DNA of 64,000 nt from Alphaproteobacteria bacterium (GTDB lineage: Bacteria; Pseudomonadota; Alphaproteobacteria; SHVV01): positions 4,122,980-4,186,979 of the forward strand of contig OZ253470.1 in assembly GCA_965261735.1 (NCBI GenBank), given 5' to 3'. Shown piece after piece: positions 35,143-54,164 of the stretch. The position numbers were made by a program, and so were the translations under genes. The notes under the pieces were generated by a model. It ran no database searches. It had not been told where the DNA came from and worked only from the letters and a program-made list of their open reading frames with translations. Each line of letters starts with the position of its first letter. Within the stretch, counting starts at the first letter, position 1.

Positions 35143-35630
35143 TCAGCCGCTCTGGAAGAGCTGGAGAATTGTGCCCGGCCCGGCATTGGCGATCGACAGC
35201 GACTGCATGCCGAGCTGCTGCTTGATCTGGAACGCCTGCAGGTTGGCGCTTTCCTCGGCGAGGTCAGCGTCGACCAGGTTGCCGAGACCTTCCTTGAGAA
35301 TGTCGACGAGTTTGCCCGTGAAATCGGCCTGGATTTCGATCCGCTTCGAGGACGAGCCGAGCGCTGCCAGCCGCGTTTGATCAGGTAGCCGCTGCGTGGA
35401 AGGGCGAGCTTCCCTTGCTGCACGAGCGGCCATAGCGTTTCCGCGATCAACTCAGCGTTCCTGTCCTGCTTCTGAGCCGTCTGTGACGCAAGCCACTCTG
35501 CGAACGCACGCTCGCCGATGTCCTCGCCGACCGACTTGCGCAGCGCATTCAGCTTGCGGAGCTACCCCTTAGTCAGGGAGTTCACATCAATCACGTTGGA
35601 AGACATCTGTGTCATGAGTCTGTCTCCAGC
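35143..35630 (-). pseudogene. Flagellin gene remnant (C-terminal D0/D1 fragment, with a putative N-terminal stub in another frame)
   Basis: C-terminal NLQAFQIKQQLGMQSLSIANAGPGTILQLFQSG matches the conserved flagellin C-terminus. Upstream sequence shifts frame and lacks the central domains. Confidence 0.55.
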
Positions 35631-35725
35631 CTCAATGGTGCGGGAATTGCCGAGCCGCATATAGCAGCAAATAGTAGTGCGTGCCAGGATCATGCAGTCT
35701 TACCATGGCGACGCAGACACAACCT

Positions 35726-36070
35726 CTATTTCATGATGTAAAAAGCCAGCTTGTTTCCATCCAAGTCCCTGAAATACCCGCCGTAGAATCCGCCAGTGCC
35801 ACGCGGTCCAAGCGCCCCCTCGTCCTTCCCCCCGAGCTCAAGAGGCGTGGCATATAATGCATTAACCTGCTCTTCGCTTCCTGCTCTGAACGCAATCATC
35901 GTGCTATTGCCTACAGTAGCCGGGTTTCCATCGTAGGGCTTGATTGCGCAGAATGCCGTTTCACCCGATGGGGCCTCCCACTGGATGAAGGTTTCTGCTT
36001 CCGCCGTCCGCTTCGCGCCGATATCTCCGAGAAGCGCATCATAGAACCGACCGGCGCGTTCAATGTCGTT
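35726..36070 (-). pseudogene. VOC (glyoxalase/bleomycin-resistance) family gene, 5'-truncated by the IS1595-family insertion
   Basis: ~85% identical to the intact paralog 61333..61704 from residue NDIERAGRFYD onward. The apparent N-terminus MSRISR is encoded by the IS inverted repeat itself. Confidence 0.6.
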
Positions 36071-37099
36071 CCTGCTTATCCGTGACATTCATCCTGCGAT
36101 GAGGAGGCGGTAGGGCATCGGGTCGGTTCGGGCGGCGCTATGGACGAAGCGCGGGATCATCGTCTGGAGTTGATAACGGCGGTTGTAGCGCCAGGCGAAA
36201 CTGACGAGGTAGCGCCCGGTGTGATCGGGGCCGAGCTTGCGATAGGTCCCGGTGACCGTGCACTTGATGTTGCCGAGCGCCGTATTGACCCATTTGAATG
36301 ACGCCACGCGGGCCGCCTTGCGTCTCGAGCCGGTGCGGATTGCCCGATGGCTGCAGGTGGCCTCGTCGAGTGCGCTCCAGCAGCCCAAGCGGTCCGTCAC
36401 AACCGCCGCGCCGGGGGCCAGCCAGTGCTTGGCGCCGCGCGCGATCTCGCGCTTGCGGAAGCCCTTGACCGGCGCCAGCTTCAGCTTGCGCGGGCGCCCC
36501 TCGGGACTGGTCGAGACCGCCGCCACGAAGGGCGTTTTGCCCGCCGCGCCGCGGCCCCGCTTGCCGCCGGAGCGCACCCCGCCGAGATAGGCGTCGTCCA
36601 TCTCGACCCGCCCCGTAAGCGCCGTCTCCCCCTCGCGCCGCGCCATCACCGCCATGATCTTGTGCTTCACGGCCCAGGCCGTCGGCTGCTTGACCCCGAG
36701 ACGGCGGCCGAGTTCCACCGACGAGATGCCGTTCTTCGCCGTCACGATCAGGTGGATGGCGGCAAACCAGACTGTCAGCGGCAGCTTGGTCGCGTGGAAG
36801 ATCGTGCCCGCCGTGGGCGATGTCTGCTTCTTGCACCGGTTGCATTGATAGAGACCCCGACCCGCCAACACGCAATGCTCCCGATGGCCGCAGCAGGGGC
36901 AGACGAAGCCGCCCGGCCAGCGCAGCCGGACCAGCGCCGCGCGGCACTGCTCCTTGGTGCCGAAGGCCTCCCGAAACGCCTCGTCGTTCAGACCACGCAC
37001 GCGCGATGCAACCTTGAACCCCATAACCGTGACCCCCTCATACAGAACATATTGAGAACATACATCCCCATAGGCGGAGTGTCACGGATAAGCAGGAAA
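36070..37099 (-). mobile_element. IS1595-family insertion sequence (ISXO2-like)
   Basis: Perfect 18-19 bp terminal inverted repeats TTCCTGCTTATCCGTGACA at 36070-36089 and 37080-37099, flanking a single transposase. No clear target-site duplication. Confidence 0.8.
36089..37024 (-). CDS. IS1595-family transposase (zinc-ribbon + DDE)
   Basis: CPCCG...CNRCKKQ zinc ribbon and ISXO2-like DDE core, 311 aa. Confidence 0.85.
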   Translation of the reverse strand: MGFKVASRVRGLNDEAFREAFGTKEQCRAALVRLRWPGGFVCPCCGHREHCVLAGRGLYQCNRCKKQTSPTAGTIFHATKLPLTVWFAAIHLIVTAKNGISSVELGRRLGVKQPTAWAVKHKIMAVMARREGETALTGRVEMDDAYLGGVRSGGKRGRGAAGKTPFVAAVSTSPEGRPRKLKLAPVKGFRKREIARGAKHWLAPGAAVVTDRLGCWSALDEATCSHRAIRTGSRRKAARVASFKWVNTALGNIKCTVTGTYRKLGPDHTGRYLVSFAWRYNRRYQLQTMIPRFVHSAARTDPMPYRLLIAG

Positions 37100-37196
37100 T
37101 GTTTTGATGACGGACATGCCCATCCGCCCCTCTCGCGCGCAGATTCGCACATCTGCTTGAACCGAAGGCCATATGCTAATGGCGAGCAGTCAAACA

Positions 37197-37811
37197 CTAA
37201 GTTGCTTTTGTGTATGGCCCGAAAACCCAGTAGAAGATTGATACTTTTGTATCGAAAGCCGTTCCTCCAACAATTTCTCCTCCTTCATAGATCGATTGAT
37301 CGCCAAAATACTTTTTTACGGCATCCGTCAACGCCATTACGCTGTGCGGCATGCAGCGCTCTATTTCACGCCTGTATTTTACGATCCCTCCTAGTTCTTC
37401 TGAAGGAACCGAGTAAGGGTGTGTGGCTAATAGCAATGTCATAATTTCTGGACTCACGTGTTTACCTTCCGAATAATCTATCATTTTCTTGACATCTTTC
37501 TGCACCTTTGTTGGATATTTATTTTCCGCTTTATTCGTGAACATATCGAAGGAATACATCGCCTTGGCTTCGACGAGCATGACCGGACTTGAATCTTCAA
37601 TTATGGCTAAATCAAATCTTTTCCATTCGCGGGCTATTTGAATGTTCTCTTCATCTCTCATTAAGCTCTGCAGGCTATACGCGATACGGTCGCGGATGGT
37701 TAGCTCTATTTTACCGGTTAGTGCTAGGTAAGCCAATTCGTTGCAGTCGAAGTCTGTATGTAGGTTCTTCATGGCTGAACAGAATAGTTTCGGCCAGTTA
37801 TGACGTGTCAT
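37197..37811 (-). CDS. Hypothetical low-GC protein, candidate PD-(D/E)xK-fold nuclease
   Basis: ~40% GC gene in a ~68% GC genome. FDLAIIEDSSPVMLVEAKAM fits the hhhD...hhhExK nuclease motif. No family recognised. Confidence 0.4.
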   Translation of the reverse strand: MTRHNWPKLFCSAMKNLHTDFDCNELAYLALTGKIELTIRDRIAYSLQSLMRDEENIQIAREWKRFDLAIIEDSSPVMLVEAKAMYSFDMFTNKAENKYPTKVQKDVKKMIDYSEGKHVSPEIMTLLLATHPYSVPSEELGGIVKYRREIERCMPHSVMALTDAVKKYFGDQSIYEGGEIVGGTAFDTKVSIFYWVFGPYTKAT

Positions 37812-38041
37812 ATTTAAATTACCTTTCTGTTATGCGATCTTACTGCAGCAGTTATCTTAAACACTAAGGGTATCCGTCATCATGAGCTGCGCCTGGTTTG
37901 GCGGGGGCCATTTCGCTTGATTCATGCCGCCATGGCTGACTGCTTGAGCATGGCGTAGTGGCGAGCTATTGTCAAAAGTTGGTGACGCAGGTTTCAGGCG
38001 GCGCGTTCGGTTAGCTTTTCTCCGTCCTTGAATTTGACGCC

Positions 38042-38821
38042 TTGAATGATGTCGGCGATCTGGTGCGAGCCGTCCAGGCGACGCCACTTCTTGCTGGCCG
38101 ACTGGCACAGCGGGCCACGCAGCGCACCGAGGCGCTGGAGCGTCTCGAAGCCGATCTCGAAACACTGATGCAGGTGGAGGGCCTGGCCATGCGCCCCGGC
38201 CCTCGCCAACCAATCGACGCGGCATTGGTCTCGCTCCTGTGCGAGGCCATTCTGACCCGCTGGACGGTGGAATTCCGCTACCTCGCCCAGTCGACAAGGA
38301 GATCAAGCCGCCAGCGTGTCGAGCCATACGGTTTGCTCTACGGCACCCGCGCCTTTCTGGTCGGGCGGACCGACTGGAGCGAGGAACCGCGCCTCTGGCG
38401 CCTTGCCAACATCGGCGATGCCCGGATCACCGGCGAGCGGTTCGAGCGGGACCCGGAATTCGACCTGCAGCACTACTCCAGACGGTCGTTCGGCACGTTC
38501 CAGGAAAAACCCGTTCAGGTGACCCTGCGTTTCGATGCCAAGGCAGCGCCGGACGCCTCGGCCTTCCTCTTCCACCCGGACCAGTCCATCGAAAAGCACA
38601 GCGACGGCACGCTCACGGTGCGCTTCAAGGCCGGCGGCATCAACGAGATGTGCTGGCATCTGGTCACTTGGGGCGAGAGCGTCACCGTTGAGAAGCCCGT
38701 CCGGCTGCGCCACCGCCTGGCCAGGATGTGCGCATCGCTCGCTGCGCATCCAGGATGTGCGCATCGCTCGCTGCGCATCATGGGGAAGATGCAAGTCCTT
38801 GAATTTCTTGGGCCGATTTAA
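38042..38821 (+). CDS. WYL-domain protein (WYL + WCX-like C-terminal), apparently lacking the N-terminal HTH, with a 29-bp tandem duplication altering the 3' end
   Basis: FRYLAQ...RVEPYGLLYGTRAFLVG WYL core. No HTH upstream. 3' end contains a perfect 29-bp direct duplication. Confidence 0.55.
   Translation: MNDVGDLVRAVQATPLLAGRLAQRATQRTEALERLEADLETLMQVEGLAMRPGPRQPIDAALVSLLCEAILTRWTVEFRYLAQSTRRSSRQRVEPYGLLYGTRAFLVGRTDWSEEPRLWRLANIGDARITGERFERDPEFDLQHYSRRSFGTFQEKPVQVTLRFDAKAAPDASAFLFHPDQSIEKHSDGTLTVRFKAGGINEMCWHLVTWGESVTVEKPVRLRHRLARMCASLAAHPGCAHRSLRIMGKMQVLEFLGPI
38722..38779. repeat. Perfect 29-bp tandem duplication (CAGGATGTGCGCATCGCTCGCTGCGCATC x2)
   Basis: Directly read in sequence. Length is not a multiple of 3, so it frameshifts the WYL-protein C-terminus. 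Confidence 0.8.
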
Positions 38822-39421
38822 GGCAATGTCGCGCCGGGCGGATATTCAACATTGCGAACAGAAGAAAATTGTGGGCCCTCCGGAAACGGCGGGAATGAAT
38901 GGCTCGAACACTACGTTCACGTGTTGATCGATCCGAGGACCGGCCAGATCTTCTACATCTGCCGGGTGAAGGCGGCAGGGTCTTCGCTCACGCCGATGGC
39001 ACGGTAACGGAAGACGATAACGACGCCGGGGATGGTGACGCGTTGTCTCCCAGGCGCAAGGTCATTCGACCGATAAGAAGCAACAGCCTGGAGCCGATCT
39101 ACGTCATACACAGGCACGGTATGCCGAAGGTCCTTGTCAGCGTTGGATGGACAAGGCCCACCTTGCCCGACAGCGCATCTTGATCAACTGCAGTCCCGGA
39201 CATTCCGCTTTGTCTTGCGGACGATTTTCCGAACAACGCTTCATGTATACGACCGAATATGCCGTATCTATGTGTTAGCGTCCCTCCATTGCATCAATCT
39301 GGACTGCGCCATACTGGCCGTTTGCGAATGAAGCCTGCTCGCCGTTAATCCTGCGAATAAGGCCTCAACTCTTTACTCACAGGCGCTGACGGGAGACGAG
39401 GTTGCGACAGGGGGACATCCG

Positions 39422-39970
39422 ATGAATACCGAAGCCGGAAACCCGGACCCAGAACATCCAGGCCCGATCCATGCCGGCTGGAACACATCTGAATTCTTTG
39501 AAAATGCCACAGCAGAGGACGTGGCGCATTGCTTGGGATCCGGCGCGGATGTGCAGGCGCGTGACAAGTACGGATGCTCGCCCCTGCACTTTGCGGCTCG
39601 CCTCGGCTCTCTGGAGGTGATCGCGGCGTTGCTCGCCGCCGGCGTCGATCCAAAAGCGTCTGCCGAAGATGGACGCATCCCCCTGCATTTTGCGGCTCGC
39701 TGGGGCTCCCCGGGGGCAGTCGCGGCGCTGCTCGCCGCTGGTGCCGACCTGAAAGCATGCGACAGGCGTAGACGCACACCGTTGTTCTGGGCAGCACTTC
39801 GCGACTGCTCTTGTGCGGTTATGGCGCTGCTCGCCGCCAGCGCCGATCCGAAGGCGTGTGCCGAAGACGGATGCTCGCCCCTGCACGTCGCGGCTCGCTG
39901 GGGCTCTCCGGATGCGATCGCGGCGCTGATCGCCGCGCGTGCTCTTGGTCGTGATGAACGAGGCGTTTGA
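39422..39970 (+). CDS. Ankyrin-repeat protein (4-5 repeats)
   Basis: Repeated GCSPLHFAARLGSLEVIAALLAAGVDPKA units. Confidence 0.65.
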   Translation: MNTEAGNPDPEHPGPIHAGWNTSEFFENATAEDVAHCLGSGADVQARDKYGCSPLHFAARLGSLEVIAALLAAGVDPKASAEDGRIPLHFAARWGSPGAVAALLAAGADLKACDRRRRTPLFWAALRDCSCAVMALLAASADPKACAEDGCSPLHVAARWGSPDAIAALIAARALGRDERGV

Positions 39971-40410
39971 AACCCTGGAGATCTGGGAAGCAGAGCGTAG
40001 CGCAGTCGTGGAAGCGCTGACTGCGCCGGGAAGCAAGGCACGCAATAGACGCGGCTCCTTGGCCGTCTCTAAGTTCAAGCAAATTGGGAAACGGGTGTGG
40101 CCCAGCAATCATAGGACGGGTATGCGGCTCGACCCGGAGTTGACGGGACCGTGTGGCTATTCTGGCGGAGTCTGGCCGGTCTGTTGTCCTCTGAGCTCGA
40201 CGAGACCGATTCCCAAGCCACAAACTATCAACGGCGGCGTGATCTTCTCCCGTTGGATTGGTCGATCCTTAGGTTGTGGATTGAGGAGGGCGGGAGATGG
40301 CAAGAAACCGTCAATGCACTGACATTCAAACCGGACCACTTTTAGGGGGTCACTCCAAATTTTATCGGGATTACCAACAGTTTTTCCTTGCTTTCAGAAA
40401 GAAACAAGAG

Positions 40411-40869
40411 ATGTGTGCGTACTATTCGCCGGCTATCTATTCCCTTATTGATCACCGCGGGGACATGGCCCAATACGGAACGACCGTTGAGGCGTGCCCG
40501 GATACTATTGACGAGGTTCTCAAGGCACGAAACATGGGTGAGACAGTACATGAAGGTTGCTCTCCCTCATCACTTCCCCCGAACAGTCAATCTTTGTCTG
40601 ATATGATCGCATCGGATGACTGTACTGCCGCCGCATTACATCTGGCATGTTTTGTCGGTTTCCTTGCCCTCAAATCAGGCTCTGCCACCATTGAGGAAGT
40701 ACTGGGGGACACCGGCCTCATCCATGAGATGGTACACCGCATGTGTAGCGTAGATGAAGAGGATGATTATCCGTTCATCGAGAGCCAGGAGGAATTGGCG
40801 GATATGGCTCACCGCATAGAGCGGACAATACCTGGTTACCCATTCACACCCACTATGTATCGTCCTTGA
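40411..40869 (+). CDS. Hypothetical protein
   Basis: ORF in a lower-GC stretch (~50% GC). No recognised domain. Confidence 0.3.
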   Translation: MCAYYSPAIYSLIDHRGDMAQYGTTVEACPDTIDEVLKARNMGETVHEGCSPSSLPPNSQSLSDMIASDDCTAAALHLACFVGFLALKSGSATIEEVLGDTGLIHEMVHRMCSVDEEDDYPFIESQEELADMAHRIERTIPGYPFTPTMYRP

Positions 40870-41637
40870 CCATCGCAATAGGCGCATTCGTGGTGGTGAG
40901 CCAACCACTGGCGGGACCGTGGCGCATTCGGTGAGGACCATGCACGAGCGCGTGCGTCACCGGAGCCGACAGGCGACGGCTTGCCCGAGCACTTCAGCGT
41001 GGGGGACCGGGAGAGTCTCGCCAACCTCGACCCCGGCGCCCGTCAACGGGTACTGGACAAGCACCGGGCCATGGAGGCCGTGCAGAGCGGCGAGATCCTC
41101 GAACACCACGCGGACGCCTTTCAGCATGCAGAGCAGGGACAGATCGCGGCACAGCAGGTGCAATTCGAGCAACAGCGGATCCAGGCCGCGCTCGTCAGCG
41201 GGACACCTGCCGCGGCCGCTCCGCTCACGGGCTATCTGCTCGGCGCGCCCGAGGCCCATTGGAGCGATGCGGTCTCGTTCAGCGTCCGTTTCTTTGCATC
41301 GCTCATCCCATGTCCTCCTTTTCCGCTGTCTGATTAGCTGCCGCGCGGGCGGAAAACAGCAGCGCGCAAAGAGGTCTCGCACCTGGAGGCTCGGGTAGAC
41401 GGGTGTGCCTATTATCGGCAGGGGGCGGCCTACAAGGAGGGACGAGTGAAGAACCCAGACAAGTTTCGAGAACTCGTGTATGCCCCGCGGATATGTCCAA
41501 ATATGACGCATCCGCGTGTTAGTGTCTCTTTTCGCAAATGCCAGCCCCAGATGAATGTGCAGTTGAAGTAACGTCAGGGGTGGACATAGCAAAGTTCGCC
41601 GGGCGGCAAGAATCTAAAGCACGAAAAGAGGCATGAA

Positions 41638-41898
41638 ATGGATCTAGAAGATACGAAACCTACGCCGGTCCCAGAACCCCATCTCTTCGACAACGACAAA
41701 TTGCGGCTAGATGCTCCATATCGTCTTCTGTCAGTTTCGGGAGTGGACACTCTCCCATCGAAGCAGGCCCTGGCTGTGACTTTGGAATTTTCCGGCCCTC
41801 AGGAACCCCTGACTTTTGTCCTGTCGCTTCCTGCGGCGGCGCAAATGGTGAATCAGCTTCGAATGGCCGTTGACGAGTGTATGTATCAGATTTACTGA
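41638..41898 (+). CDS. Hypothetical small protein (86 aa)
   Basis: ATG with AAAAGAGG RBS. No recognised domain. Confidence 0.35.
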   Translation: MDLEDTKPTPVPEPHLFDNDKLRLDAPYRLLSVSGVDTLPSKQALAVTLEFSGPQEPLTFVLSLPAAAQMVNQLRMAVDECMYQIY

Positions 41899-42304
41899 AT
41901 GCAGCCCCCGCACCAGGCCCCTTAAAGCCGTAACAGGTCCTGTTGCGGATGACCCCTCTCTTGCGCAACGCCCTGCAGAACCTTTTCAGGAACAGGCCAG
42001 GTCCGGGCGCCGGGTGACTCCGATTGGCGTCTGCACTCTCGCGATCCCGCCCGCCATATCGTGGGTGATGTGGGAAGCAACACTGCCGTACGTGCTCGGC
42101 GTCGAGGCGCTGTGGGCGGGGGTATGGGCGTTCGCCGGGGCGGGCGCGGCCTGGAGAGTGTTTCAGTGGGGATTGGTTGCCGCGGTAGTGGCAGCGATCT
42201 ACTGGTTCCTGTCCAACCTCTCGTGAGGCCGCGCTCCGCCCCGGCGGGAGGTTGGGGATGCTGCGCGCCTTGGCCGACGGGACTGTTTTTGAAAGGATCA
42301 GATT

Positions 42305-42691
42305 ATGAGCGACGAGAAAATCATCATCGGGATTGAACACGCGCTTCTGACTCTCGCGCGGGCAGATCAAATTCTTGAGGACATTACCCCGTCCAGAGAG
42401 AGTGATGAGGATGATGAGGGTGATGATGTGATCCCGTGGCAGGCCGCACACGTGTGGATCTTCAGGGCGATGAGCTTGCTGATAGATTCACTGGATGGTA
42501 TCGAAACGGTGACCTTTTCGTCGGATGAAAGAATTCCCATTGCAAAAACCACCCAACCCTATGCGTACTTGCCCGCCCGGTATGCAGCGATAGCGGACAG
42601 GTACAAGGACCAAGCCCGCGAGGTTGAGGATCTTTTTGATGAGATTAAGGATGATTTGCGCGAATCTTCTTCTCTCGATGACGATGAGTAG
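42305..42691 (+). CDS. Hypothetical acidic protein (128 aa, Asp/Glu-rich tail)
   Basis: ORF with highly acidic termini (SRESDEDDEGDD ... SSLDDDE). A possible anti-restriction-like or DNA-mimic composition, which is speculative. Confidence 0.3.
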   Translation: MSDEKIIIGIEHALLTLARADQILEDITPSRESDEDDEGDDVIPWQAAHVWIFRAMSLLIDSLDGIETVTFSSDERIPIAKTTQPYAYLPARYAAIADRYKDQAREVEDLFDEIKDDLRESSSLDDDE

Positions 42692-42722
42692 CCGGCGCCG
42701 CGCTCACCAAACTGAGGCGGCA

Positions 42723-43214
42723 ATGCGGTACGAACAAAGTGGACGGCCACGATTGAAGTCTTCCGTCAGGACCGGGTGCATGTATGCGCTCGCGGCGGTC
42801 CTTGTCGCCGGCTTGGCGAGCCCGTCCTTTGCCGGCAAGCGCCATCGTCATCATCACGGCCACCACCACGGCTATGCTGCGGCAGCCATGGCCGGTTTCG
42901 GCATGTTGAGTTTGATGCTGAGCCGCCCGAGGGCGGACTATTACCGGTATGGAGGGTGGATGCCCACGAGGATCTATGGTCATCCACCAACAGTCCACGT
43001 CGTGCCGCAGGTGCGATATGTCGTTAGGCCAACACCACCATCGCGAATAGCTCCCGTCCGGCAACGCGCAACACTGCCTCCGGGCTGTCTGATGATCCGT
43101 GAATATCAGACGCGGATCATCATCGGCGGACGAGAGGTTGAGGCCTACGGCGATGCGTGTATGCAGCCCGATGGATCCTGGAGGCGCGGGCCACCCAAGC
43201 TTGTGCCTCACTGA
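42723..43214 (+). CDS. Secreted His-rich small protein
   Basis: Signal-peptide-like MYALAAVLVAGLASPSFAG followed by KRHRHHHGHHHG. Start is uncertain. Confidence 0.35.
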   Translation: MRYEQSGRPRLKSSVRTGCMYALAAVLVAGLASPSFAGKRHRHHHGHHHGYAAAAMAGFGMLSLMLSRPRADYYRYGGWMPTRIYGHPPTVHVVPQVRYVVRPTPPSRIAPVRQRATLPPGCLMIREYQTRIIIGGREVEAYGDACMQPDGSWRRGPPKLVPH

Positions 43215-43232
43215 CCTCTGGATAGTCGTGAG

Positions 43233-44038
43233 GGTGCTGTCAACTTAACGAAGGCAGGTCGCAGTTGAACGTCTGAACTGAGCGGCTCAAGCAGCAGCGG
43301 TCACGGTCCGCCACGTGTTCATCGCGTCACCGCGGAATTGGCGCATTGTCTTGCGAGTGATCAGATGACGTTGGACATTGAAGGTGTTGTAGATGGCGGC
43401 GTGGGTGGAGAGAAACCTTTGCGCCGATCCTGATGACTTGAAGCCCTGCATCCTGCGTTCTCGTTGTCGAACCGGCAGGTGCGAATTCTCCGCCCGATTA
43501 TTGCTCCGTCCGCCGGTAACGTGTTTCCCCGTCATGTTGAGATCACGCAATGCTGCCCCGTAAGATGGCAGTTTATCGGTCACCACCTTATTCGGCGCAT
43601 ACCCCTGCTTCTTGAGCAGTTTGCGCATCAGCTTGAGTGCTGCTTTCTTGTTCCTCCGGGACTGAACCGGGATATCCAGCACCTCACCCTCGCTGTCCAC
43701 CGCCCGCCATAGATACATCCGTTTTCCGTTGATGGAGGAAAACACCTCATCAAGGTGCCACCGGTCGTCTGGTCGAGGGCGTGATTGTCTCAGTTTTCGG
43801 GCATAGGCCTGCCCAAACTTTAAAGACCAGCGCCGTATCGTCTCGTAAGAAACATCGACACCACGTTCAGCGAGCAGATCCTCCACATCGCGGTAACTGA
43901 GCGGAAACCGGAAACACAGCCAGACGGCGCGCTGGATTATCTCTGCAGGAAACCGATGTCGGCGGTAGCTGATCTTGTTCATAACAGGAAGCTACTCGCC
44001 ACCCGCAGCTGACACCAGCCAGTTACCGTGACAGCACC
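43233..44038 (-). mobile_element. IS6-family insertion sequence
   Basis: ~806 bp. Terminal inverted repeats GGTGCTGTCA... at 43233 and (reverse complement) at 44038. Single IS6-type transposase. Confidence 0.7.
43287..43982 (-). CDS. IS6-family transposase
   Basis: MNKISYRRHRFP N-terminus and DDE region typical of IS6/IS26-like transposases, 231 aa. Confidence 0.85.
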   Translation of the reverse strand: MNKISYRRHRFPAEIIQRAVWLCFRFPLSYRDVEDLLAERGVDVSYETIRRWSLKFGQAYARKLRQSRPRPDDRWHLDEVFSSINGKRMYLWRAVDSEGEVLDIPVQSRRNKKAALKLMRKLLKKQGYAPNKVVTDKLPSYGAALRDLNMTGKHVTGGRSNNRAENSHLPVRQRERRMQGFKSSGSAQRFLSTHAAIYNTFNVQRHLITRKTMRQFRGDAMNTWRTVTAAA

Positions 44039-44155
44039 GATCGCCGAAGCGGTGCCCGAGGAAGATCCGGCCGAGCTCATCCGTGAAGTGCTGATTCTCG
44101 AAAGGGAAATCACAAAGGGACTCGAATTACTCTTGGCAGAGGTGGAGGGCCAGTA

Positions 44156-45976
44156 ATGGGCGAGCAATCTGCTTTCACGATCGAATCGAACGACTTGGCG
44201 ATCGCCCAGATTTTCAAGGATTTCTACGCCGTCCCCGACTTCCAGCGCGAATACGTCTGGGAGCGCGAGCACGTCGAGAAGCTCCTCGAGGACGTGCTCG
44301 ATGAGTTCTATGACGAAGATGCTCGGCTGATCGAAGGCCCAGAATACTTCCTGGGCAGCATTGTCTCCTGCCGTGACCATGAAGGGATCTTTCATCTCAT
44401 CGACGGCCAACAACGGATGACGACCATCTACCTTGTTCTGTGCGCTGCGCGTGACGCCTTGAGAGATGCCGACGATAAGCCCACGCGGGTCCTCGAGGCG
44501 CAAATTTCCTACACCTACTCCGATCCCAAAACGGGCGAAGACGTAGAGCGACATCGGCTCACCCTTCAGTACGAGGACAGCGATGGCATCTTGGAAAAAC
44601 TCGTAAAGGCTGACCAACCAGTCTCAGGCCTTCCTGAAACCACGGAGTCCGTGAGGAAGATACTCGCCGCCTATCGGACGATTCGAGAGTTTTTCTCGGT
44701 AAACCTGAGGGACGAACCAGCCGCGATCAAGAGATTCCTGGTGGCCTTCACCGGCCGCATCAAGCTGATCCGCATCCTCACACCGACGATCACCAACGCC
44801 CTGAAGGTGTTCGAGACCATTAACGATCGTGGAGTGGGCTTGAACGCCGTGGATCTCCTGAAGAACCTCCTCTTCATGAAGACGTCCACCGAGGATTATC
44901 CGAAGCTCAAGGATCGTTGGTAAATCCTGATCGACGTTCTCGATGACTGTGGCGAAAAGCCGCTGCGGTTTCTTCGTTACTACATCATGTCGCACTACGA
45001 GATCGACTATAGCCGCAGCATTCGCGAAGACGAAATCTACGACTGGTTCGTCAAGAATACGGAGGTCTGCGGCATCGACCATGATCCACTCGGTTTTGCT
45101 GAAGCGTTAACCGAGTGCGCACGGGCACACGCCAATTTCCTCTCTTCCAAGGACCGCCAGGGCAACGACAACCGATATCTTCGGAACCTCACCCTGCTCG
45201 GCGGCGCGCTTCGCCAGCAGCACATCCTCCTCCTTGCCGGTCGCCATCTCGCGCCCGATCTCTTCGACCAGCTGTGTCGCACCATCGAGAGCCTTTTCTT
45301 CTGTTACATCATCACGCGCGAACCGACCAAGACCTTCGAGCGAAATTTCGCCCGATGGTCGGGGGAGTTGCGCAGCTGCGAATACGCGGCCGCCCTTGAT
45401 GCCTTCCTGAACAAATATCTCATAGCGGACCTACGGGGGCGCACCGAACGGTTCGACTTCGCCTTCCGGGAACTCACACAATGGAACATCCAGCAGTACC
45501 GCATGCGGTACATCCTGGCGAAGCTCACCGAGTACATCGAGGAACAGGCATGGGGCAGCCCCACCTACGCCCAACTGGACCGCTACACGGACAAATCGGT
45601 CCACGTCGAGCACATACTGCCGCAGACACCCACTGCGGAGGTTCGGGAGGCATTCGACAAACCGGGCGAGTATGATGACTACCTCAGCCGGCTCGGTAAC
45701 CTTACGCTGCTGGAGAAGACCATCAACAGCTCGGTCTCCAACGGCAGCTATACCGACAAGGGGCCGGGGTATAGGCAGTCCTCTTTCCTGCTTACCAAGT
45801 CGCTAGCCGAGAAGCCGCACGTCGGGACCAACACTCAGCTGAACCGGGCGGTGGCCGATCTGATTCAGTTCGATTGCTGGAACTCGCAGACGATCGTACA
45901 GCGCCAGGAAATGCTGACCGCGCTGGCGCGAAAGGTATGGGACATGCCGTCGGGCACCAAGGAGGCAACGGGATGA
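44156..45976 (+). pseudogene. DUF262 (ParB/Srx-like, DGQQR) + DUF1524 (HNH-like) GmrSD-family type IV restriction-like gene, split by an in-frame TAA at 44921-44923
   Basis: ORF 44156..44923 has DGQQR (DUF262). ORF 44987..45976 has VEHILPQ (DUF1524). Both are in the same frame, separated by one stop codon. Confidence 0.6.
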
Positions 45977-47271
45977 TTTGGCCCCCAGTGCCCCTTGAGA
46001 AGCTCGCGCGTGCTTCTGGCGGAAGCACACCCAAGCGTAACAACGATTCCTATTGGAATGGCGATGTCCCTTGGGTGACCCCTTCAGACTTGCCAGCACC
46101 AGGAGCATCGATCGTCGATGTGGAGGACACCAAGGACCACATCACACAGGAGGGGCTCAATTCCTGTTCCGCCCTGCTCTTGCCGCCTGAAACGGTGCTC
46201 TTCTCCTCCCGCGCGACCATTGGGAAAATCGGTATTGCCAAGGTTCCTTTAGCGACCAACCAGGGCTTTGCGAATTTCACGCCCAACCTTGGTGTTGAGC
46301 CAAAGTATCTTGCATATGCGCTTCGGTATTTTACGCCACAGATCACCGCACTGGCCGGTTCTACTACCTTCAAGGAAGTGAGCCGGGGCGCGATCCGCAA
46401 ATTCCAGATCCCTCTCCCGCCCCCTTCGGAGCAGAAGCGAATCGTCGAAATTCTCGATCAGGCCGATGCGCTCCAGCGTGAATGTGCAGAGGCGGACGCA
46501 AAGAAACAGCGTATCCTACCAGCGCTATTCACGAGAATGTTCGGAGACCCGGCTACCAACCCCATGGGGTGGCCGACCGCACCGATGGGTGATGTTGTTG
46601 AGATTGGTACAAAACTTGTTGATCCAAACGGGAGTACGTATCTCGATCTGCCGCATATTGGTGGAGAAGAAATCGAAAAGAACACCGGCCGCATCCTTTC
46701 TACTAAATTAGTACGCGATAGCAAACTTCGAAGCAGCAAATTTCATTTCACGCGGGAACATATTCTTTATTCGAAGATTCGTCCTTATCTAAATAAAGTT
46801 TCCTATCCCGGTTTCGAAGGACTTTGTAGCGCGGACATTTACCCTCTACGTCCAAAAGATAACCACACCACAACATGGTATCTTGTAGCGCTTCTTCGCT
46901 CAACGTCCTTCCTCTGCTATGCAAACTTGCATTCAGAGCGGCTGCGAATGCATAAGTTGAATCGCGAGCAGTTGGGAGCGTTCAAAACACCTTTGCCCGA
47001 TCCTGAGTTACTGGAGGCTTTCGAGCAACGGGCACAGTCATTGGCCACATTTGACGTTAGTCGTTTTCACCGAGCTCGTGAAACGAAAACATTGTTCCAC
47101 GTCATCATTCATCGATCCTTCTCTGGCGAGCTCACCGCCAAATGGCGCGACAGCCACACCGATGAGCTATTGCGAGAAGCTCAGGAACAAGCGGAGGCGC
47201 TGGAGACGGTGTGTGCCGGAACCTCGACCGGCCCCCGCCGCGGACGGCCTTTGAAAGCGGTGTCATGTTGA
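45973..47271 (+). CDS. hsdS: Type I restriction-modification specificity subunit HsdS (two TRDs), orphan
   Basis: Conserved S-subunit central and C-terminal repeats (FQIPLPPPSEQKRIVEILD, TPLPDPELLEAFEQ). The second TRD is markedly AT-rich. No hsdM or hsdR in the window. Confidence 0.8.
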   Translation: MIWPPVPLEKLARASGGSTPKRNNDSYWNGDVPWVTPSDLPAPGASIVDVEDTKDHITQEGLNSCSALLLPPETVLFSSRATIGKIGIAKVPLATNQGFANFTPNLGVEPKYLAYALRYFTPQITALAGSTTFKEVSRGAIRKFQIPLPPPSEQKRIVEILDQADALQRECAEADAKKQRILPALFTRMFGDPATNPMGWPTAPMGDVVEIGTKLVDPNGSTYLDLPHIGGEEIEKNTGRILSTKLVRDSKLRSSKFHFTREHILYSKIRPYLNKVSYPGFEGLCSADIYPLRPKDNHTTTWYLVALLRSTSFLCYANLHSERLRMHKLNREQLGAFKTPLPDPELLEAFEQRAQSLATFDVSRFHRARETKTLFHVIIHRSFSGELTAKWRDSHTDELLREAQEQAEALETVCAGTSTGPRRGRPLKAVSC

Positions 47272-48944
47272 CAGCGATTCGCCTCGGCAATTTCAAGGCA
47301 TTCGGGGCGACCCAACGGGTGCCTTTGAAGCCCCTCACTCTAGTCTTTGGCCCCAATAGTGCCGGCAAATCGAGCATTATTCACAGTTTGGCGCTCGCAC
47401 ACGAGGCCCGTCGAAGCGGAAATCTCGACGCTTTCCGGACCGACGTCGGCGGCACATCGATCGATCTGGGCGGCTTTCGCCAGTATGTGTTTCGCCGCGA
47501 CCCTTCCCATCGTGTCGAGTTGGCGATGGAAATCGATGTCTCCAAGCTCTCTGGACGGTTGGCAGAAATACTGGCGCCCATACGCACCGCAGCAGTGTCG
47601 GTCAATTTCGGTTTACCTGTGGATGATCACGGTTATGCGCCAAGCGACGCATTGACTGAATTAGAGAGTTATAAGGTCGAAGGGGATGGGTCCGATCTAC
47701 TACGTATGAGCAGGCGCCCAGGCGGCAATCTCCATCTTGATCGTCTGGCGAACGAACATCCAGTGTTTCGCCAAGTCCTCAAGGCGATCGTCGAGACGGG
47801 CACTACCACTTCCGAACTCAGGAACGAAGACCAAAAGGTCCTTGATGAGACCATCGCCGACCTTATTCCGATGCTAAAGGTCAAAGCCGGGCGTTTTCTC
47901 CCAGATGGAATAGAGGGCACTTCGGAACAGGCCGAGAGTGGGGCCGCCGAAGCCATGCTCTTCCCCGTCGGTCGCGGCAGCAGATCAGAGGATCTGGCCG
48001 GTGCAGTTCGCTTCTATTTGCCGCGCATTCTGAATGAGTTGATCGGTGGGCTGGATCATGAGGTCGGTGAACAGATAGAGCGGCTTCAATATCTAGGGCC
48101 GCTTCGCTCGTACCCGCCCCGCCATCTGGCGTTTTCCGAACACGACGACGCGAACTGGCACGCCGGGGGCGGCTATGCGTGGGACGTGCTCCGGCGAGAC
48201 TGGATGGTCAGGGAGCAAGTCAACAAGTGGCTTGGGGCTAATTGGCTCAAGACCAACTACCAACTTGTGCTACGGGAATTTGTCGCGATGGATCAACTTG
48301 ACAAACCGCTTTCAACTGCATTCGAGACCTTTGAAGGCGACGACCAAGTCCTTGACCTTGAGGTAGATTACGATCATTCGAGCGGAGAACCTTCAGGTCA
48401 ATACCCGGTTATTAAAGACGCTGACGAAGCAATATCTCGCATCCGAACGTGTATCGAAATGTCCGACATCGACAAATTAGCGGAGTTAATCCTTGTCGAT
48501 CAAAGCACGGAGACCGTGGTTAGCCACCGGGACGTCGGCATCGGCATCTCGCAGGTTTTGCCGGTCCTTGTCTCGTGCTACGGCCTTCGCGACCAGATCG
48601 TCGCGATCGAGCAGCCGGAGATCCATCTGCACCCAGCGCTTCAGGCCGAGCTAGGCGATGTCTTTATTCAGTCGGCGCTCGGCGACAATAACAATGCCTT
48701 CGTTCTAGAGACCCATTCCGAACATTTGATCCTCAGGATCATGCGCCGAATTCGCGACACCGCCGATGATAGACTCCCTTCCGGTGTTCCTGCCGTCAAG
48801 CCCGACGACGTTTCGGTGATTTTTGTTGAACAAACGAAGGTGGGAGCAATCGTTCGGGTGCTCCAACTCGACACCGACGGCGAGTTTACCGATTCCTGGC
48901 CAGGCGGTTTCTTTGAAGAGGGCTTCAGAGAACGGTTCACTTAA
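47265..48944 (+). CDS. ABC-type AAA ATPase (AAA_15/21-like with DUF3696-like C-terminus), defense-associated
   Basis: N-terminal LTAIRLGNFKAF...FGPNSAGKSS Walker A. Distal Walker B/D-loop IVAIEQPEIHLHPALQ. ~560 aa, OLD/RecF-like split ATPase layout. Confidence 0.7.
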   Translation: MLTAIRLGNFKAFGATQRVPLKPLTLVFGPNSAGKSSIIHSLALAHEARRSGNLDAFRTDVGGTSIDLGGFRQYVFRRDPSHRVELAMEIDVSKLSGRLAEILAPIRTAAVSVNFGLPVDDHGYAPSDALTELESYKVEGDGSDLLRMSRRPGGNLHLDRLANEHPVFRQVLKAIVETGTTTSELRNEDQKVLDETIADLIPMLKVKAGRFLPDGIEGTSEQAESGAAEAMLFPVGRGSRSEDLAGAVRFYLPRILNELIGGLDHEVGEQIERLQYLGPLRSYPPRHLAFSEHDDANWHAGGGYAWDVLRRDWMVREQVNKWLGANWLKTNYQLVLREFVAMDQLDKPLSTAFETFEGDDQVLDLEVDYDHSSGEPSGQYPVIKDADEAISRIRTCIEMSDIDKLAELILVDQSTETVVSHRDVGIGISQVLPVLVSCYGLRDQIVAIEQPEIHLHPALQAELGDVFIQSALGDNNNAFVLETHSEHLILRIMRRIRDTADDRLPSGVPAVKPDDVSVIFVEQTKVGAIVRVLQLDTDGEFTDSWPGGFFEEGFRERFT

Positions 48945-48946
48945 AG

Positions 48947-49915
48947 GTGTTGGAATTGTTTTACGAATACGCGATCACGCCAGAAGTTTTCGACCCAGCC
49001 TTCTTAGCAGAAAACGGGGCGAACCCTGTGGTTATCACTCAGCTTCTCCGTGGAATTTGCGAAAACGAAATGATCGCCGTCCTGCATAAGAACGGATGGA
49101 GCAGAGACATTGCACAACGCATTGGTAGTGTGCCTTCACAGAAAAACAGAAACAAGCTCATGACGTTGTTGTCGGGTCTCAAGGACCGAAATCGGTTGGT
49201 ACGGCACCCAAAAGGACCGAACCATCCAAACGACAAATTGGAATGGCTGGTATTAGCTCGCGAAGCTCACAATCGTGCGCCACTTGACGCGCTCATGCTC
49301 ACCCCTGAATTGCTCAAGATTAGTGGCATGAATGATGAAATTTTGATTGAAGTTGATAGTGCGTTGGATTCGCGGGCTTGGCTTGCTCGAAAACGATCCG
49401 AGACAATCAAACAACGAGAAGAGGATTATCGAGGCTTGTTTCCGAAAATCCTGCGTCACTCAAAACGGCTTTACCTCATCGACCGCTTCTTCAGGCCCGA
49501 ACTGCGTCAATGGACTGACACGATTAAGATTTGCGACTCATTGATGGGGCAACGTGGCGGAGAACCGCTTCAGGGCATTATCGAGATACACACTGGCGAT
49601 CCTTCAAAGCGATGTTCGCCTCAACACGAAGCGGCGGCATGGGAACGTTGGAAGAGAGCGGAGTTCGTTCCAAATTTCCGCCACACGTTGTCAGTCGGGA
49701 TGTGGAAGAGATGCGACGACGGCAAACGCGTACATGACCGCTTCCTGATAACGGATCAGGTGGGGTTCTCGATTGCTGGTGGATTGGATTGCCTAAGGCC
49801 GCCATTTGGCACTCCGTCCGATACGATCTGGACACTGATGGATGAAGAGGAGCGACAGCTTTGGCTGAGCAAGTTTAGGGCGGACACAAGCCCTTACGAG
49901 AAAATTGAACCGTAG
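48947..49915 (+). CDS. Hypothetical 322-aa protein, partner of the ATPase (candidate effector)
   Basis: Starts 3 nt after the ATPase stop, co-oriented. No recognisable domain. Possible D...EVD...K nuclease-like motif. Confidence 0.5.
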   Translation: MLELFYEYAITPEVFDPAFLAENGANPVVITQLLRGICENEMIAVLHKNGWSRDIAQRIGSVPSQKNRNKLMTLLSGLKDRNRLVRHPKGPNHPNDKLEWLVLAREAHNRAPLDALMLTPELLKISGMNDEILIEVDSALDSRAWLARKRSETIKQREEDYRGLFPKILRHSKRLYLIDRFFRPELRQWTDTIKICDSLMGQRGGEPLQGIIEIHTGDPSKRCSPQHEAAAWERWKRAEFVPNFRHTLSVGMWKRCDDGKRVHDRFLITDQVGFSIAGGLDCLRPPFGTPSDTIWTLMDEEERQLWLSKFRADTSPYEKIEP

Positions 49916-50074
49916 CAGCGGTGAGCGAAATGTGAGGCGGCCTCGCCTTTTCGGACAGCTTGGCGGCTGAGTTAAGGTGTGACAACTTACAGCCCAAAAG
50001 GGCTATCTACACGAACATATACAGCGTTGCTCAATCCTCCTGATAATTACGATGTTACAATAGCTTGGCCTGTC

Positions 50075-50160
50075 CGCCATCAAAACAAATGGGACTGTTA
50101 ACCGTGTTTCATAAGGGAGGATCTGGCTCATCTTTGTTTGATGTTAAGCCGCTTGGCGTT
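50075..50160. repeat. Left ~86-bp terminal inverted repeat of nested IS21-family element (starts TGT)
   Basis: Reverse complement is ~95% identical to 54165-54250. Confidence 0.7.
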
Positions 50161-50341
50161 GATGGCCCAAGCGGTGGTTTTGGGTGGTCAGTTTTTGATC
50201 CTTTTTCCCTTTTTGTCAACGGCGGCGGGAATATGTACCGGGGCGGCGCTGCAAAAATGATGGAGTGGACGCCTCCTCCCGACGGCATCTGCATGTGCCA
50301 AGGTGGTGTTGTAGTTCGACCCCCTGAAGGAGGAGGCATCC

Positions 50342-54031: not shown

Positions 54032-54164
54032 CTCGTGCCCCTCGTCGCAACCGACAAGGGACCATGAGTGGCACAATTTTGCGCCGCCGCGACCGGACCG
54101 CCCGGCCGCCTCGCGTGGAGCATTATTCCTCCGCCGTTAACAACCGCCGCTTGAACCATCAAAG

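What the first reader, a model, noticed from the sequence alone, without database searches (positions are those of the whole stretch)
37100..43232. ~6-kb low-GC foreign segment bracketed by IS1595-family and IS6-family elements
Between the two IS elements GC drops to ~40-55% in places, against ~68% elsewhere. The segment carries genes atypical for the host: a candidate PD-(D/E)xK nuclease, a truncated WYL regulator, an ankyrin-repeat protein, a very acidic protein, a His-rich secreted protein and small hypotheticals. This looks like a horizontally acquired cargo region, possibly a defense/anti-defense cluster remnant, assembled by IS activity.
Basis: seen in the sequence. Interest (0 to 1): 0.6.

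Follow-up and report, generated by a model that had tools for sequence, protein, structure and literature searches.

The report
IS-riddled patchwork island of decaying accessory genes
The flagged 6 kb is real foreign low-GC DNA. It is the left part of a larger, strain-specific patchwork of gene fragments and a few intact orphan genes, stitched together by insertion sequences. This is an ordinary kind of bacterial genomic island.

Summary
**Observation: confirmed.**
- An IS1595 element (36069-37098) and an IS6 element (43233-44038) bracket the segment.
- The segment has GC 0.574 against 0.673 for the flank. Gene GC3 is 0.46-0.78 against 0.80-0.89 for host genes.

**The 6 kb is not a unit.**
- Low GC runs on to 50070.
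- A sister strain that is 99.6% identical loses synteny at 35371, inside its flagellin gene.
- The segment contains at least four modules. Each recurs at 86-99% identity in other metagenome contigs, in different arrangements and next to different insertion sequences.

**Several genes are dead.**
- The WYL regulator lacks its first 112 codons, including the HTH, and carries a frame-breaking 29-bp duplication.
- The "94-aa ORF" is a frameshifted stump of a ~257-aa protein that I recall, untested, as GIY-YIG-like.
- Next door lie an hsdM stump and a GmrSD gene with an in-frame stop.

**Probably intact genes:**
- a 204-aa PD-(D/E)xK-like orphan with no family model;
- an ankyrin protein;
- an acidic plus His-rich secreted gene pair.

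**How it was built.**
- Neither the IS1595 nor the IS6 element has a target duplication.
- IS21 termini sit at both edges of the low-GC tract (37100-37116 and 50071). This suggests capture by IS21.

**Verdict:** a horizontally acquired accretion island reworked by insertion sequences, partly defence-related. Low novelty.

The parts
35143..35371 (-). Stump of the flagellin gene (C-terminal part). This is the left breakpoint of the strain-specific region.
   Evidence: Pfam Flagellin_C E=6e-14. The sister strain L010 has the full 282-aa flagellin. Nucleotide identity to L010 stops exactly after 35371.
35718..36068 (-). VOC/glyoxalase gene copy. Its 5' end is replaced by the IS1595 inverted repeat.
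   Evidence: Pfam Glyoxalase. It is 89.8% identical, inverted, to 61360-61712. The first six codons lie inside the IS1595 inverted repeat.
36069..37098 (-). IS1595-family insertion sequence, 1030 bp, with no target-site duplication.
   Evidence: The flanks are caatgtcg and atgttttg.
37100..37116 (-). Solo 17-nt IS21 terminus (TGTCCGTCATCAAAACA), identical to the left-end terminus at 54234-54250.
   Evidence: three copies in the window against 0.01 expected.
37197..37811 (-). 204-aa PD-(D/E)xK-like orphan gene (GC 0.43). It forms module a (37099-37963).
   Evidence: 51 homologues, with E36, R61, E62, W63, D67, E81, D106, K145 and Y146 invariant and K83 in at least 90% of sequences. The AF2 model has pLDDT 94.9. 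Fold hits are weak and only nuclease-enriched. No Pfam, NCBIfam, PADLOC or PHROG family matches at threshold.
38042..38821 (+). WYL-WCX regulator pseudogene. It lacks the first ~112 codons (HTH) and has a 29-bp tandem duplication at 38721-38778.
   Evidence: Pfam WYL and WCX only. The L013 orthologue is 332 aa with an HTH_11 trace, and homology starts at 38110. The duplication is absent from L001 and L013.
38852..39183 (+). I recall that protein as GIY-YIG-like, but this is not tested.
   Evidence: The repaired reading aligns across the frameshift to E. coli WP_000355475.1, residues 17-83. dN/dS against L013 is 0.94. It hits phrog_5356.
39422..39970 (+). Ankyrin-repeat protein, 182 aa, built of 99-nt repeats.
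   Evidence: The L013 orthologue is 134 aa.
40297..40869 (+). 190-aa ORF. The true start is probably M39 at 40411, giving about 152 aa. Function unknown.
   Evidence: Only 3 homologues in 5.8 billion proteins. The shorter homologues align from residue 39. One sits in a Rhodospirillales defence-type island.
40981..41337 (+). 118-aa ORF. Its coding status is uncertain.
   Evidence: GC3 is 0.76. No family hit. A metagenome gene caller chose the opposite strand here.
41638..41898 (+). 86-aa acidic ORF of unknown function.
   Evidence: It is conserved in L006, and partly in L013 at another place.
41936..42226 (+). 96-aa hydrophobic ORF that looks like two transmembrane segments.
   Evidence: Gene calls in L002 and L006. 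No family hit.
42305..42691 (+). Acidic 128-aa protein (pI 4.1). It is the first gene of module d (42245-43235).
   Evidence: 9 homologues with a strongly conserved core. dN/dS is 0.15-0.62. The AF2 model is poor (pLDDT 58.5).
42723..43214 (+). His-rich protein with a signal-like N-terminus (start at M34). It is the second gene of module d.
   Evidence: 399 cluster representatives share the C-terminal region. P0065 aligns from query residue 34. dN/dS is 0.36-0.42.
43233..44038 (-). IS6-family insertion sequence, 806 bp, with no 8-bp target duplication.
   Evidence: The flanks are gtcgtgag and gatcgccg.
44039..44156 (+). 38-codon open stump that ends in a TAATG overlap with the next gene. By position it is the 3' end of hsdM; this is an inference.
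   Evidence: Translation. There is no database support.
44156..45976 (+). GmrSD-type (DUF262 + DUF1524) type IV restriction gene, split by one in-frame stop at 44921-44923.
   Evidence: Pfam GmrSD_N and GmrSD_C. The two ORFs match PADLOC Orf5 positions 3-238 and 275-553 of 554. The stop is seen and is also present in L002.
45973..47271 (+). Type I R-M specificity subunit HsdS. It looks intact but is an orphan.
   Evidence: Pfam Methylase_S; PADLOC Specificity_I E=2e-80.
47211..49915 (+). AAA_15/DUF3696 ATPase (577 aa) plus a 322-aa partner ORF of unknown function.
   Evidence: PDC-M55A, NsnB and HEC-03B models. The partner has no hits.
50071..54250 (-). IS21-family element (istA 52529-54076, istB 51772-52680) carrying a nested IS110-family element (transposase 50342-51364 on the + strand).
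   Evidence: The ends are 94% alike over 112 bp.

Best explanation
The flagged segment is the left half of a roughly 13-kb low-GC accessory tract (37117-50070). That tract sits inside a strain-specific region saturated with insertion sequences, which starts at 35372, inside a broken flagellin gene, and runs at least to 54250.

The segment is not one system. It is an accretion of modules that circulate separately among related bacteria:
- (a) a 204-aa PD-(D/E)xK-like orphan gene;
- (b) a WYL regulator, a nuclease-like stump and an ankyrin gene;
- (c) a 2.3-kb block of small unknown genes;
- (d) a pair of genes for an acidic protein and a His-rich secreted protein.

Beyond the IS6 element lies a decayed type I restriction island (hsdM stump, GmrSD with a stop codon, orphan hsdS, ATPase pair).

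The modules were joined, and in part destroyed, by insertion-sequence events, namely replicative transposition, deletion and nested insertion. This explains why the elements lack target duplications and why genes are cut at element or module edges.

Shown here:
- the foreign composition;
- absence from a sister strain at this locus;
- modularity;
- the pseudogenes;
- the missing duplications.

Inferred:
- The whole 13-kb tract entered by IS21-mediated replicon fusion or as an IS21 compound element. IS21 termini in the same orientation lie exactly at both edges of the low-GC DNA. I put this step at about 0.45.
- The surviving intact genes act singly rather than as an operon.
For: **Composition.**

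**Sister strain.** L010 is 99.6% identical up to 35371. It then carries intact flagellin, HDAC, DUF924 and other genes at GC 0.61-0.72, and none of these are in the window.

**Modularity**
- L006 carries 39342-43225 at 97-99% identity, with IS3 insertions that overlap by 5-7 nt at about 39467 and 41206.
- In L006 the 204-aa module is elsewhere and inverted.
- L013 has full-length WYL, the stump, ankyrin, and then directly the acidic and His-rich genes at ~90% identity, without block c.
- L014 and L015 have only the acidic/His-rich pair.

**Pseudogenes.**

**Missing target duplications.**. Loss of the 8-bp repeats through intramolecular replicative transposition is described for the IS6 family in PMC7986276.

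**IS21 termini at 37100-37116 and 50071-50087.**. Replicon fusion by IS21 cointegrase is cited in PMC10122671.

**Selection on surviving genes.**
Against: - The right end of the strain-specific region was not found inside the window. A large rearrangement cannot be told apart from a pure insertion.
- The left IS21 copy is only a 17-nt remnant.
- The 4-nt flanks are only 3/4 alike (TGCC at 37117, GGCC at 50067, GGCA at 54251), so they do not decide between simple insertion and fusion.
- The tract is compositionally heterogeneous (GC 0.42-0.66). It was therefore already a mosaic before any single capture event.
- A 23-nt repeat (37118-37140 and 51729-51751) is unexplained.
- All genes from 38042 to 43214 point the same way. 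This leaves room for co-transcription.
Confidence: 0.8

Rival explanations
1. The 6-kb segment is a discrete cargo unit mobilised as a compound transposon by its two bracketing insertion sequences.
For: Insertion sequences lie exactly at both edges, 37098/37100 and 43232/43233.
Against: - The two elements belong to different families, IS1595 and IS6.
- There are no target duplications.
- Low GC continues past the IS6 element.
- In L006 and L013 the same genes are bounded by other elements, IS110 and IS3, and in L006 the 204-aa module lies elsewhere and inverted.
Confidence: 0.03
2. WYL, ankyrin, the acidic protein and the His-rich protein form a functional WYL-regulated system (defence or stress). 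The window holds a damaged copy of it.
For: - In L013 a full-length WYL regulator (332 aa), the 94-aa ORF, ankyrin, the acidic protein and the His-rich protein are contiguous and co-oriented at ~90% identity. They lie downstream of AAA, PDDEXK_4 and DUF2779 genes.
- WYL dN/dS is 0.17, and the acidic/His-rich pair is under purifying selection.
Against: - The acidic/His-rich pair also occurs without WYL or ankyrin (L014, L015), and the acidic gene occurs alone in L016.
- The 94-aa ORF is a dead stump in both copies.
- The five genes match no model of a whole defence system; the only PADLOC hits are generic WYL, Cas3c and ankyrin-repeat models.
- Only one other genome shows the full arrangement.
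Confidence: 0.12
3. The region is native core DNA with unusual composition, for example highly expressed or AT-rich regulatory genes.
For: None beyond its presence in three near-identical metagenome contigs.
Against: - It is absent at this locus in a 99.6% identical strain.
- It holds five insertion sequences and several pseudogenes.
- Its modules recur in unrelated contexts, and homologues of the 204-aa gene lie on plasmids of other phyla.
Confidence: 0.02
4. The IS21 termini at both edges of the low-GC tract are two independent insertions that landed there by chance, and the tract was not acquired through IS21.
For: - The region is a hot spot with many elements, and L006 shows an IS21 end inserted into an IS1595 copy.
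- The flank comparison (GGCC vs GGCA) fits a simple insertion about as well as a fusion.
Against: - Both termini coincide with the GC steps.
- They are in direct orientation.
- The 17-mer occurs only at these three places in 64 kb.
Confidence: 0.4

Closest known systems
Genomic (defence) islands built by insertion-sequence accretion, such as variable regions around type I R-M loci
   Same: - Atypical GC and absence from a close relative.
- Many insertion sequences and truncated genes.
- Restriction, GmrSD, ATPase and WYL components.
   Different: - There is no integrase and no tRNA target.
- Half of the finding's genes have no defence annotation.
- Several defence genes are inactivated.
IS6/IS26 pseudo-compound transposons and IS26-driven deletions (PMC7986276)
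   Same: A single IS6 copy without the 8-bp repeat joins two unrelated blocks and cuts a gene, here the presumed hsdM.
   Different: Only one IS6 copy is present in the window, so no pseudo-compound structure is seen.
IS21 replicon fusion and tandem IS21 structures (PMC10122671 and references 35-37 in it)
   Same: IS21 termini in direct orientation lie at both ends of a foreign tract. The complete copy has istA, istB and long multi-repeat ends.
   Different: The left copy is reduced to 17 nt by the IS1595 junction. The outer duplication cannot be checked, and the right copy carries a nested IS110.
WYL-domain regulators (HTH + WYL + WCX), as associated with defence systems in PADLOC models
   Same: The WYL and WCX domains are recognised.
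   Different: The DNA-binding HTH is missing and the 3' end is frame-broken. It is a pseudogene here.
PD-(D/E)xK nucleases (type II restriction enzymes, HsdR N-terminal domain, NucS/Mrr-like)
   Same: - The 204-aa family conserves E...D...E-x-K on a confident alpha/beta model.
- It gives a weak HSDR_N_2 hit.
- Its best, though weak, fold hits are restriction enzymes and viral PD-(D/E)xK proteins.
   Different: - No significant sequence or fold match to any solved nuclease.
- No methyltransferase or other constant partner.

Membership tests
Compound (composite) transposon | Two copies of the same insertion sequence flank the cargo | tested here: not met
   The left element is IS1595 and the right is IS6. 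No second copy of either inverted repeat occurs in the window.
Compound (composite) transposon | Target-site duplication outside the two elements | tested here: not met
   Neither element is flanked by a direct repeat.
Genomic island | Composition differs from the host | tested here: met
   GC is 0.56-0.57 against 0.67. GC3 is 0.46-0.78 against 0.80-0.89.
Genomic island | Absent from close relatives at the same locus | tested here: met
   L010 is 99.6% identical up to 35371 and unrelated beyond it. Only the left boundary could be seen.
Genomic island | Integrase and tRNA or other att site | tested here: not met
   There is no tRNA in the 64 kb. No integrase appeared in any Pfam scan.
IS1595 family | DDE_Tnp_IS1595 transposase with zinc ribbon, terminal inverted repeats, length ~1 kb | tested here: met
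   The expected 8-bp duplication (from my own knowledge) is not present.
IS6 family | ~800 bp, short terminal inverted repeats, single DDE transposase, 8-bp duplication | tested here: met
   806 bp with an inverted repeat, and NF033587 at 227 bits. The duplication is absent, which the family review explains by intramolecular events.
IS21 family | istA + istB and multi-repeat terminal inverted repeats starting TG | tested here: met
   The element is enlarged by a nested IS110.
WYL transcription regulator | N-terminal HTH DNA-binding domain | tested here: not met
   There is no HTH hit. The PADLOC WYL profile is matched only from position 86. The L013 orthologue has 112 more N-terminal residues.
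WYL transcription regulator | WYL and WCX domains | tested here: met
   PF13280 at 39 bits and PF25583 at 53 bits, both above their cut-offs.
PD-(D/E)xK nuclease superfamily (204-aa protein) | Conserved D ... (D/E)-x-K catalytic motif on a beta-hairpin after an alpha-helix | tested here: met
   D67 and E81 are invariant, K83 is in at least 90% of 44 sequences, and E36 is invariant. Strands 57-63, 66-72 and 75-86 follow helix 35-50 in the AF2 model.
PD-(D/E)xK nuclease superfamily (204-aa protein) | Significant sequence or structure match to a known member | tested here: inconclusive
   - HSDR_N_2 E=0.002, 18.7 bits, below the cut-off of 25.
- Foldseek PDB best hit is BstEII, E=0.027, TM 0.32.
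- BFVD hits are weak but enriched for nucleases.
- The PDB profile search gave nothing.
PD-(D/E)xK nuclease superfamily (204-aa protein) | Nuclease activity | not testable with these tools
   This needs biochemistry.
Type I restriction-modification system | hsdM, hsdS and hsdR all present | tested here: not met
   Only hsdS is intact. A 38-codon stump lies where hsdM should end, and no hsdR is present before the IS21.
GmrSD type IV restriction enzyme | DUF262 and DUF1524 in one polypeptide | tested here: inconclusive
   Both domains are present in one frame but are separated by a stop codon seen in two assemblies. Separate GmrS and GmrD subunits exist in some systems (my own knowledge), so function is not excluded.
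Anti-restriction DNA mimic (acidic protein) | Match to ArdA/Ocr-type families or a confident mimic-like fold | tested here: not met
   No Pfam, NCBIfam, PADLOC or PHROG hit apart from a sub-threshold CorC hit. The AF2 model is too poor to search (pLDDT 58.5).

The most novel reading that the evidence does not exclude
The 204-aa protein may found an unclassified family of stand-alone PD-(D/E)xK nucleases that act as a single-gene defence or orphan restriction function.
- It has about 50 members in 5.8 billion proteins and no Pfam, NCBIfam or PADLOC model.
- It moves as a roughly 0.9-kb low-GC module between plasmids and islands of Proteobacteria and Actinobacteria.
- It has no constant partner and often sits beside R-M, toxin-antitoxin, SIR2 or helicase genes.

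A weaker second reading: the acidic plus His-rich pair is a self-contained mobile two-gene module with a fixed right end.
Probability: 0.25. Interest if true: 0.45.

Novelty: new member of a known kind. Interest (0 to 1): 0.22.

Why it matters
The result mainly helps annotation and shows the population dynamics of an uncultured alphaproteobacterium.
- Near-identical strains differ by many insertion-sequence-driven rearrangements in this region.
- Defence genes there are being lost as fast as they arrive.
- Several gene calls in the region are pseudogenes, so they should not be counted as "hypothetical proteins".

The only lead with wider value is the small, conserved family of 204-aa nuclease-like proteins. 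It has no family model and could be tested cheaply for anti-phage or restriction activity.

Tried and rejected
- **13-kb element with its own 21-nt terminal inverted repeats (37100-37120 / 50067-50087).** Rejected. The repeat is the IS21 terminus, which also occurs at 54234-54250.
- **IS110 circle-junction or empty-site reading of 37100-37140.** Considered because of the permuted 17-mer and 23-mer. It could not be made to fit and is left unexplained.
- **Exact IS110 ends inside the IS21.** Not obtainable. Plasmid IS21 relatives are ~70% identical and match only the coding part.
- **GIY-YIG assignment of the stump.** Only homology to a 257-aa E. coli hypothetical protein and phrog_5356 is shown. 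The GIY-YIG label rests on my recollection of the motif.
- **hsdM identity of the stump 44039-44156.** No hit in Pfam or by tblastn. It is kept as an inference from position.
- **Acidic protein as a DNA mimic.** The model is too poor to search.
- **Partner of the acidic gene.** The downstream ORFs in L014 and L016 are unrelated.
- **Other searches that found nothing.** Rfam found no RNA family. No tRNA was found. Promoter and terminator scans were uninformative. Megablast against plasmids hit only the insertion sequences.
- **Exact-protein look-ups.** The GFA and the 322-aa protein are not on record.
- **Integron cassette array.** Considered because of the co-oriented small ORFs. There is no integrase, and no attC-like sites were noticed, but this was not formally tested.

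Full report
**1.

- On the left is an IS1595-family element at 36069-37098. It has perfect 19-nt inverted repeats that occur nowhere else in the window. Its transposase clears the NCBIfam cut-off (171 against 75 bits).
- On the right is an IS6-family element at 43233-44038. It is 806 bp with inverted repeats GGTGCTGTCA..TAAC, and its transposase scores 227 against 125 bits.

The composition differs from the flanks.
- GC of 37100-43232 is 0.574, against 0.673 for the 35 kb to the left.
- Troughs of 0.42-0.46 fall over the 204-aa gene and about 0.50 over the 190-aa gene.
- GC3 of the segment's ORFs is 0.46-0.78, against 0.80-0.89 for the flanking genes.

All the listed genes are present.

**2. 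The 6 kb is not the unit**

Low GC continues past the IS6 element to about 50070.
- The tract 37117-50070 has GC 0.561.
- 86% of its 500-bp windows lie below the 5th percentile of the background.

To the right of the IS6 element the genes are as follows.
- A 38-codon stump ends in a TAATG overlap with the next gene. From its position I infer it is the end of hsdM, but no database supports this.
- A GmrSD-type gene has its DUF262 and DUF1524 halves in one frame, separated by a single stop codon. The stop is also present in an independent metagenome contig.
- An apparently intact hsdS follows.
- Next come an AAA_15/DUF3696 ATPase and a 322-aa partner of unknown function.
- There is no hsdR.
- Last is an IS21-family element at 50071-54250. 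Its ends are 94% alike over 112 bp, and it contains a nested IS110-family transposase.

**3. Comparison with a sister strain**

The only close genome in the species-representative collection is an "Alphaproteobacteria bacterium" MAG, locus L010.
- It is 99.6% identical to the window over 24271-30393 and 30537-35371, and then has no similarity at all.
- The break falls inside the flagellin gene. L010 has the full 282-aa gene followed by HDAC, DUF924 and other genes at GC 0.61-0.72. The window keeps only the C-terminal stump.
- Nothing from the 9 kb to the right in L010 occurs anywhere in the window.

So the strain-specific region starts at 35372, and its right end lies beyond what I could establish.

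**4. Modules**

Metagenome contigs from several samples carry parts of the segment. They were compared with the window by blastn and tblastn.
- L001 and L002 are near-identical (98.7-99.6%) and share the IS6 junction.
- L006 (97-99%) has 39342-43225 with IS3 elements inserted at about 39467 and 41206. The 5-7-nt overlaps there look like target duplications. Beyond 43225 it has an IS110 and a different IS1595. The 204-aa module plus the IS1595 end lie inverted further on, abutting an IS21 end.
- L013 is from a 7.4-Mb contig of another assembly. At ~90% identity it has a full-length WYL gene (332 aa), the 94-aa ORF, a shorter ankyrin gene, and then immediately the acidic and His-rich genes, followed by an IS110. 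The 2.3 kb of block c is absent there.
- L014 and L015 have only the acidic/His-rich pair (90%). L016 has only the acidic gene (80%).

In all four contexts that hold the pair, homology stops at 43225-43235, the edge of the IS6 element in the window.

From this I distinguish four modules:
- a: 37099-37963;
- b: about 38110-39970;
- c: about 39971-42290;
- d: 42245-43235.

**5. Gene states**

*WYL.* Homology to the L013 gene begins at codon 113 of that gene. The HTH is therefore gone, and an unrelated 23 codons precede the rest. A 29-bp tandem duplication at 38721-38778, absent from L001 and L013, also breaks the 3' end.

*The "94-aa ORF".* It is a stump.
- A reading repaired across one frameshift aligns in one piece to a 257-aa hypothetical protein of E. 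coli plasmids and prophages, residues 17-83. Homology then ends.
- The same frameshift is present in L013.
- dN/dS is 0.94.
- The motif YVY.LIDPR...FYVGKG.GNRVFAH looks GIY-YIG-like to me, but Pfam did not confirm it.

*Acidic and His-rich genes.* They look functional, with dN/dS 0.15-0.62 and 0.36-0.42 respectively.
- The His-rich protein starts at M34 with a signal-like segment. It shares its C-terminal region with 399 cluster representatives.
- The acidic family has nine members. Its structure model is unreliable.

*190-aa ORF.* It has three relatives and probably starts at M39.

**6. The 204-aa protein**

- It has 51 homologues of about 200 aa and no precomputed Pfam domain.
- E36, R61, E62, W63, D67, E81, D106, K145 and Y146 are invariant, and K83 is nearly so.
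- The AlphaFold model is confident (pLDDT 94.9). It places D67 and E81-x-K83 on consecutive strands after a helix that carries E36.
- Fold searches give only weak hits. BstEII is best in the PDB (E=0.027). Viral PD-(D/E)xK, Cas4-like, Mrr and Vsr proteins recur at E=0.01-0.3. A profile search of PDB sequences finds nothing.
- Neighbourhoods vary: BglII R-M with a Gp49/HTH pair; SIR2 with UvrD_C; Eco57I-type methylase with HipA; helicase with exonuclease; or insertion sequences.

I conclude that it is a solitary protein with a nuclease-like fold, typical of accessory and defence neighbourhoods. Membership of the superfamily is supported by motif and topology but not by a significant match.

**7. 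How the mosaic was made**

- Neither bracketing element has a target duplication. For the IS6 family this is the expected trace of intramolecular replicative transposition, which deletes or inverts adjacent DNA (PMC7986276). It fits the cut in the presumed hsdM.
- The IS1595 inverted repeat supplies the first six codons of a VOC gene. A fuller copy of that gene lies inverted at 61360-61712.
- One nucleotide to the right of the IS1595 end lies a 17-nt sequence identical to the left terminus of the IS21 element (54234-54250). It occurs only three times in the window, against 0.01 expected.
- The low-GC tract is therefore bounded on both sides by IS21 termini in the same orientation. One belongs to a remnant and the other to a complete copy.
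- IS21 is known to fuse replicons, leaving a copy on each side (references 35-37 cited in PMC10122671). I think IS21-mediated capture of the 13-kb tract is the most economical reading.
- The 4-nt flanks are only 3/4 alike and the left copy is nearly gone. I rate this step at about 0.45.

**8. Verdict**

This is an ordinary accessory island reworked by insertion sequences, in an uncultured alphaproteobacterium.
- It is partly defence-related and largely decayed.
- The implied 6-kb unit and the anti-defence idea are not supported.
- Novelty is low.
- The one lead worth a bench test is the 204-aa nuclease-like family.

Noticed in passing
window 35718-36070 and 61360-61712: Two inverted copies (89.8% identical) of a low-GC VOC/glyoxalase gene lie 25 kb apart. 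The left copy is cut by the IS1595 element and the right copy has the full N-terminus. They could mediate inversion of everything between them.
   Followed up: partly
window 37118-37140 and 51729-51751: A 23-nt GC-rich sequence next to the solo IS21 17-mer recurs inverted, with 3 mismatches, between the nested IS110 and the istB stop. None of 100 shuffles gave two matches. No explanation was found.
   Followed up: partly
window 50071-54250: An IS110-family element (transposase 50342-51364) is nested in the right-end region of an IS21-family element. In relatives L006 and L013, other IS110 members (51% aa identity) sit directly after the His-rich gene.
   Followed up: partly
window 47211-49915: An AAA_15/DUF3696 ATPase matches the PADLOC models PDC-M55A, NsnB and HEC-03B. 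A 322-aa partner follows it and has no hit in any library or in plasmids. The pair lies between hsdS and the place where hsdR would be.
   Followed up: partly
window 44921-44923: A single in-frame stop splits an otherwise complete GmrSD gene. The same stop is in an independent metagenome contig (L002), so it is unlikely to be a sequencing error.
   Followed up: yes
window 39526-39942: The ankyrin gene is built of 99-nt repeats (four in-register copies of a 120-nt reference, 63-82% identical). Length differs between relatives: 182 aa here and 134 aa in L013.
   Followed up: partly
window 30393-30537 vs L010 6123-7227: The sister strain has a 1.1-kb element here, with inverted repeats (GCCTTGCCTATCCGGTT...) and a distant IS1595-like transposase. 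The window has 143 bp of other sequence at this point.
   Followed up: no
window 41742-41904 and 49931-49980 vs L013 1-264: Two window sites 8 kb apart lie 40 nt apart in L013, next to an IS3. One is the 3' part of the 86-aa gene. The other is a 50-nt stretch after the 322-aa gene.
   Followed up: no
window 54314-59171: To the right of the IS21 element lie a DEAD-box helicase, a 529-aa ORF with a weak UPF0236 hit, and a umuD (Peptidase_S24) / umuC pair. GC here is near the host level. Whether they belong to the strain-specific region is unknown.
   Followed up: no
window 32007-33170 / 33325-34494 and 19977-20926 / 21355-22307: There are two tandem paralogue pairs: the MFS transporters at 65% nucleotide identity, and another pair at 70%.
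   Followed up: no
window 35372-35560 (- strand): Just inside the left breakpoint is an open fragment (...LRKLNALRKSVGEDIGERAFAEWLASQTAQKQDRNAELIAETLWPLVQQGK...). It appears to be cut off at the junction and has not been identified.
   Followed up: no
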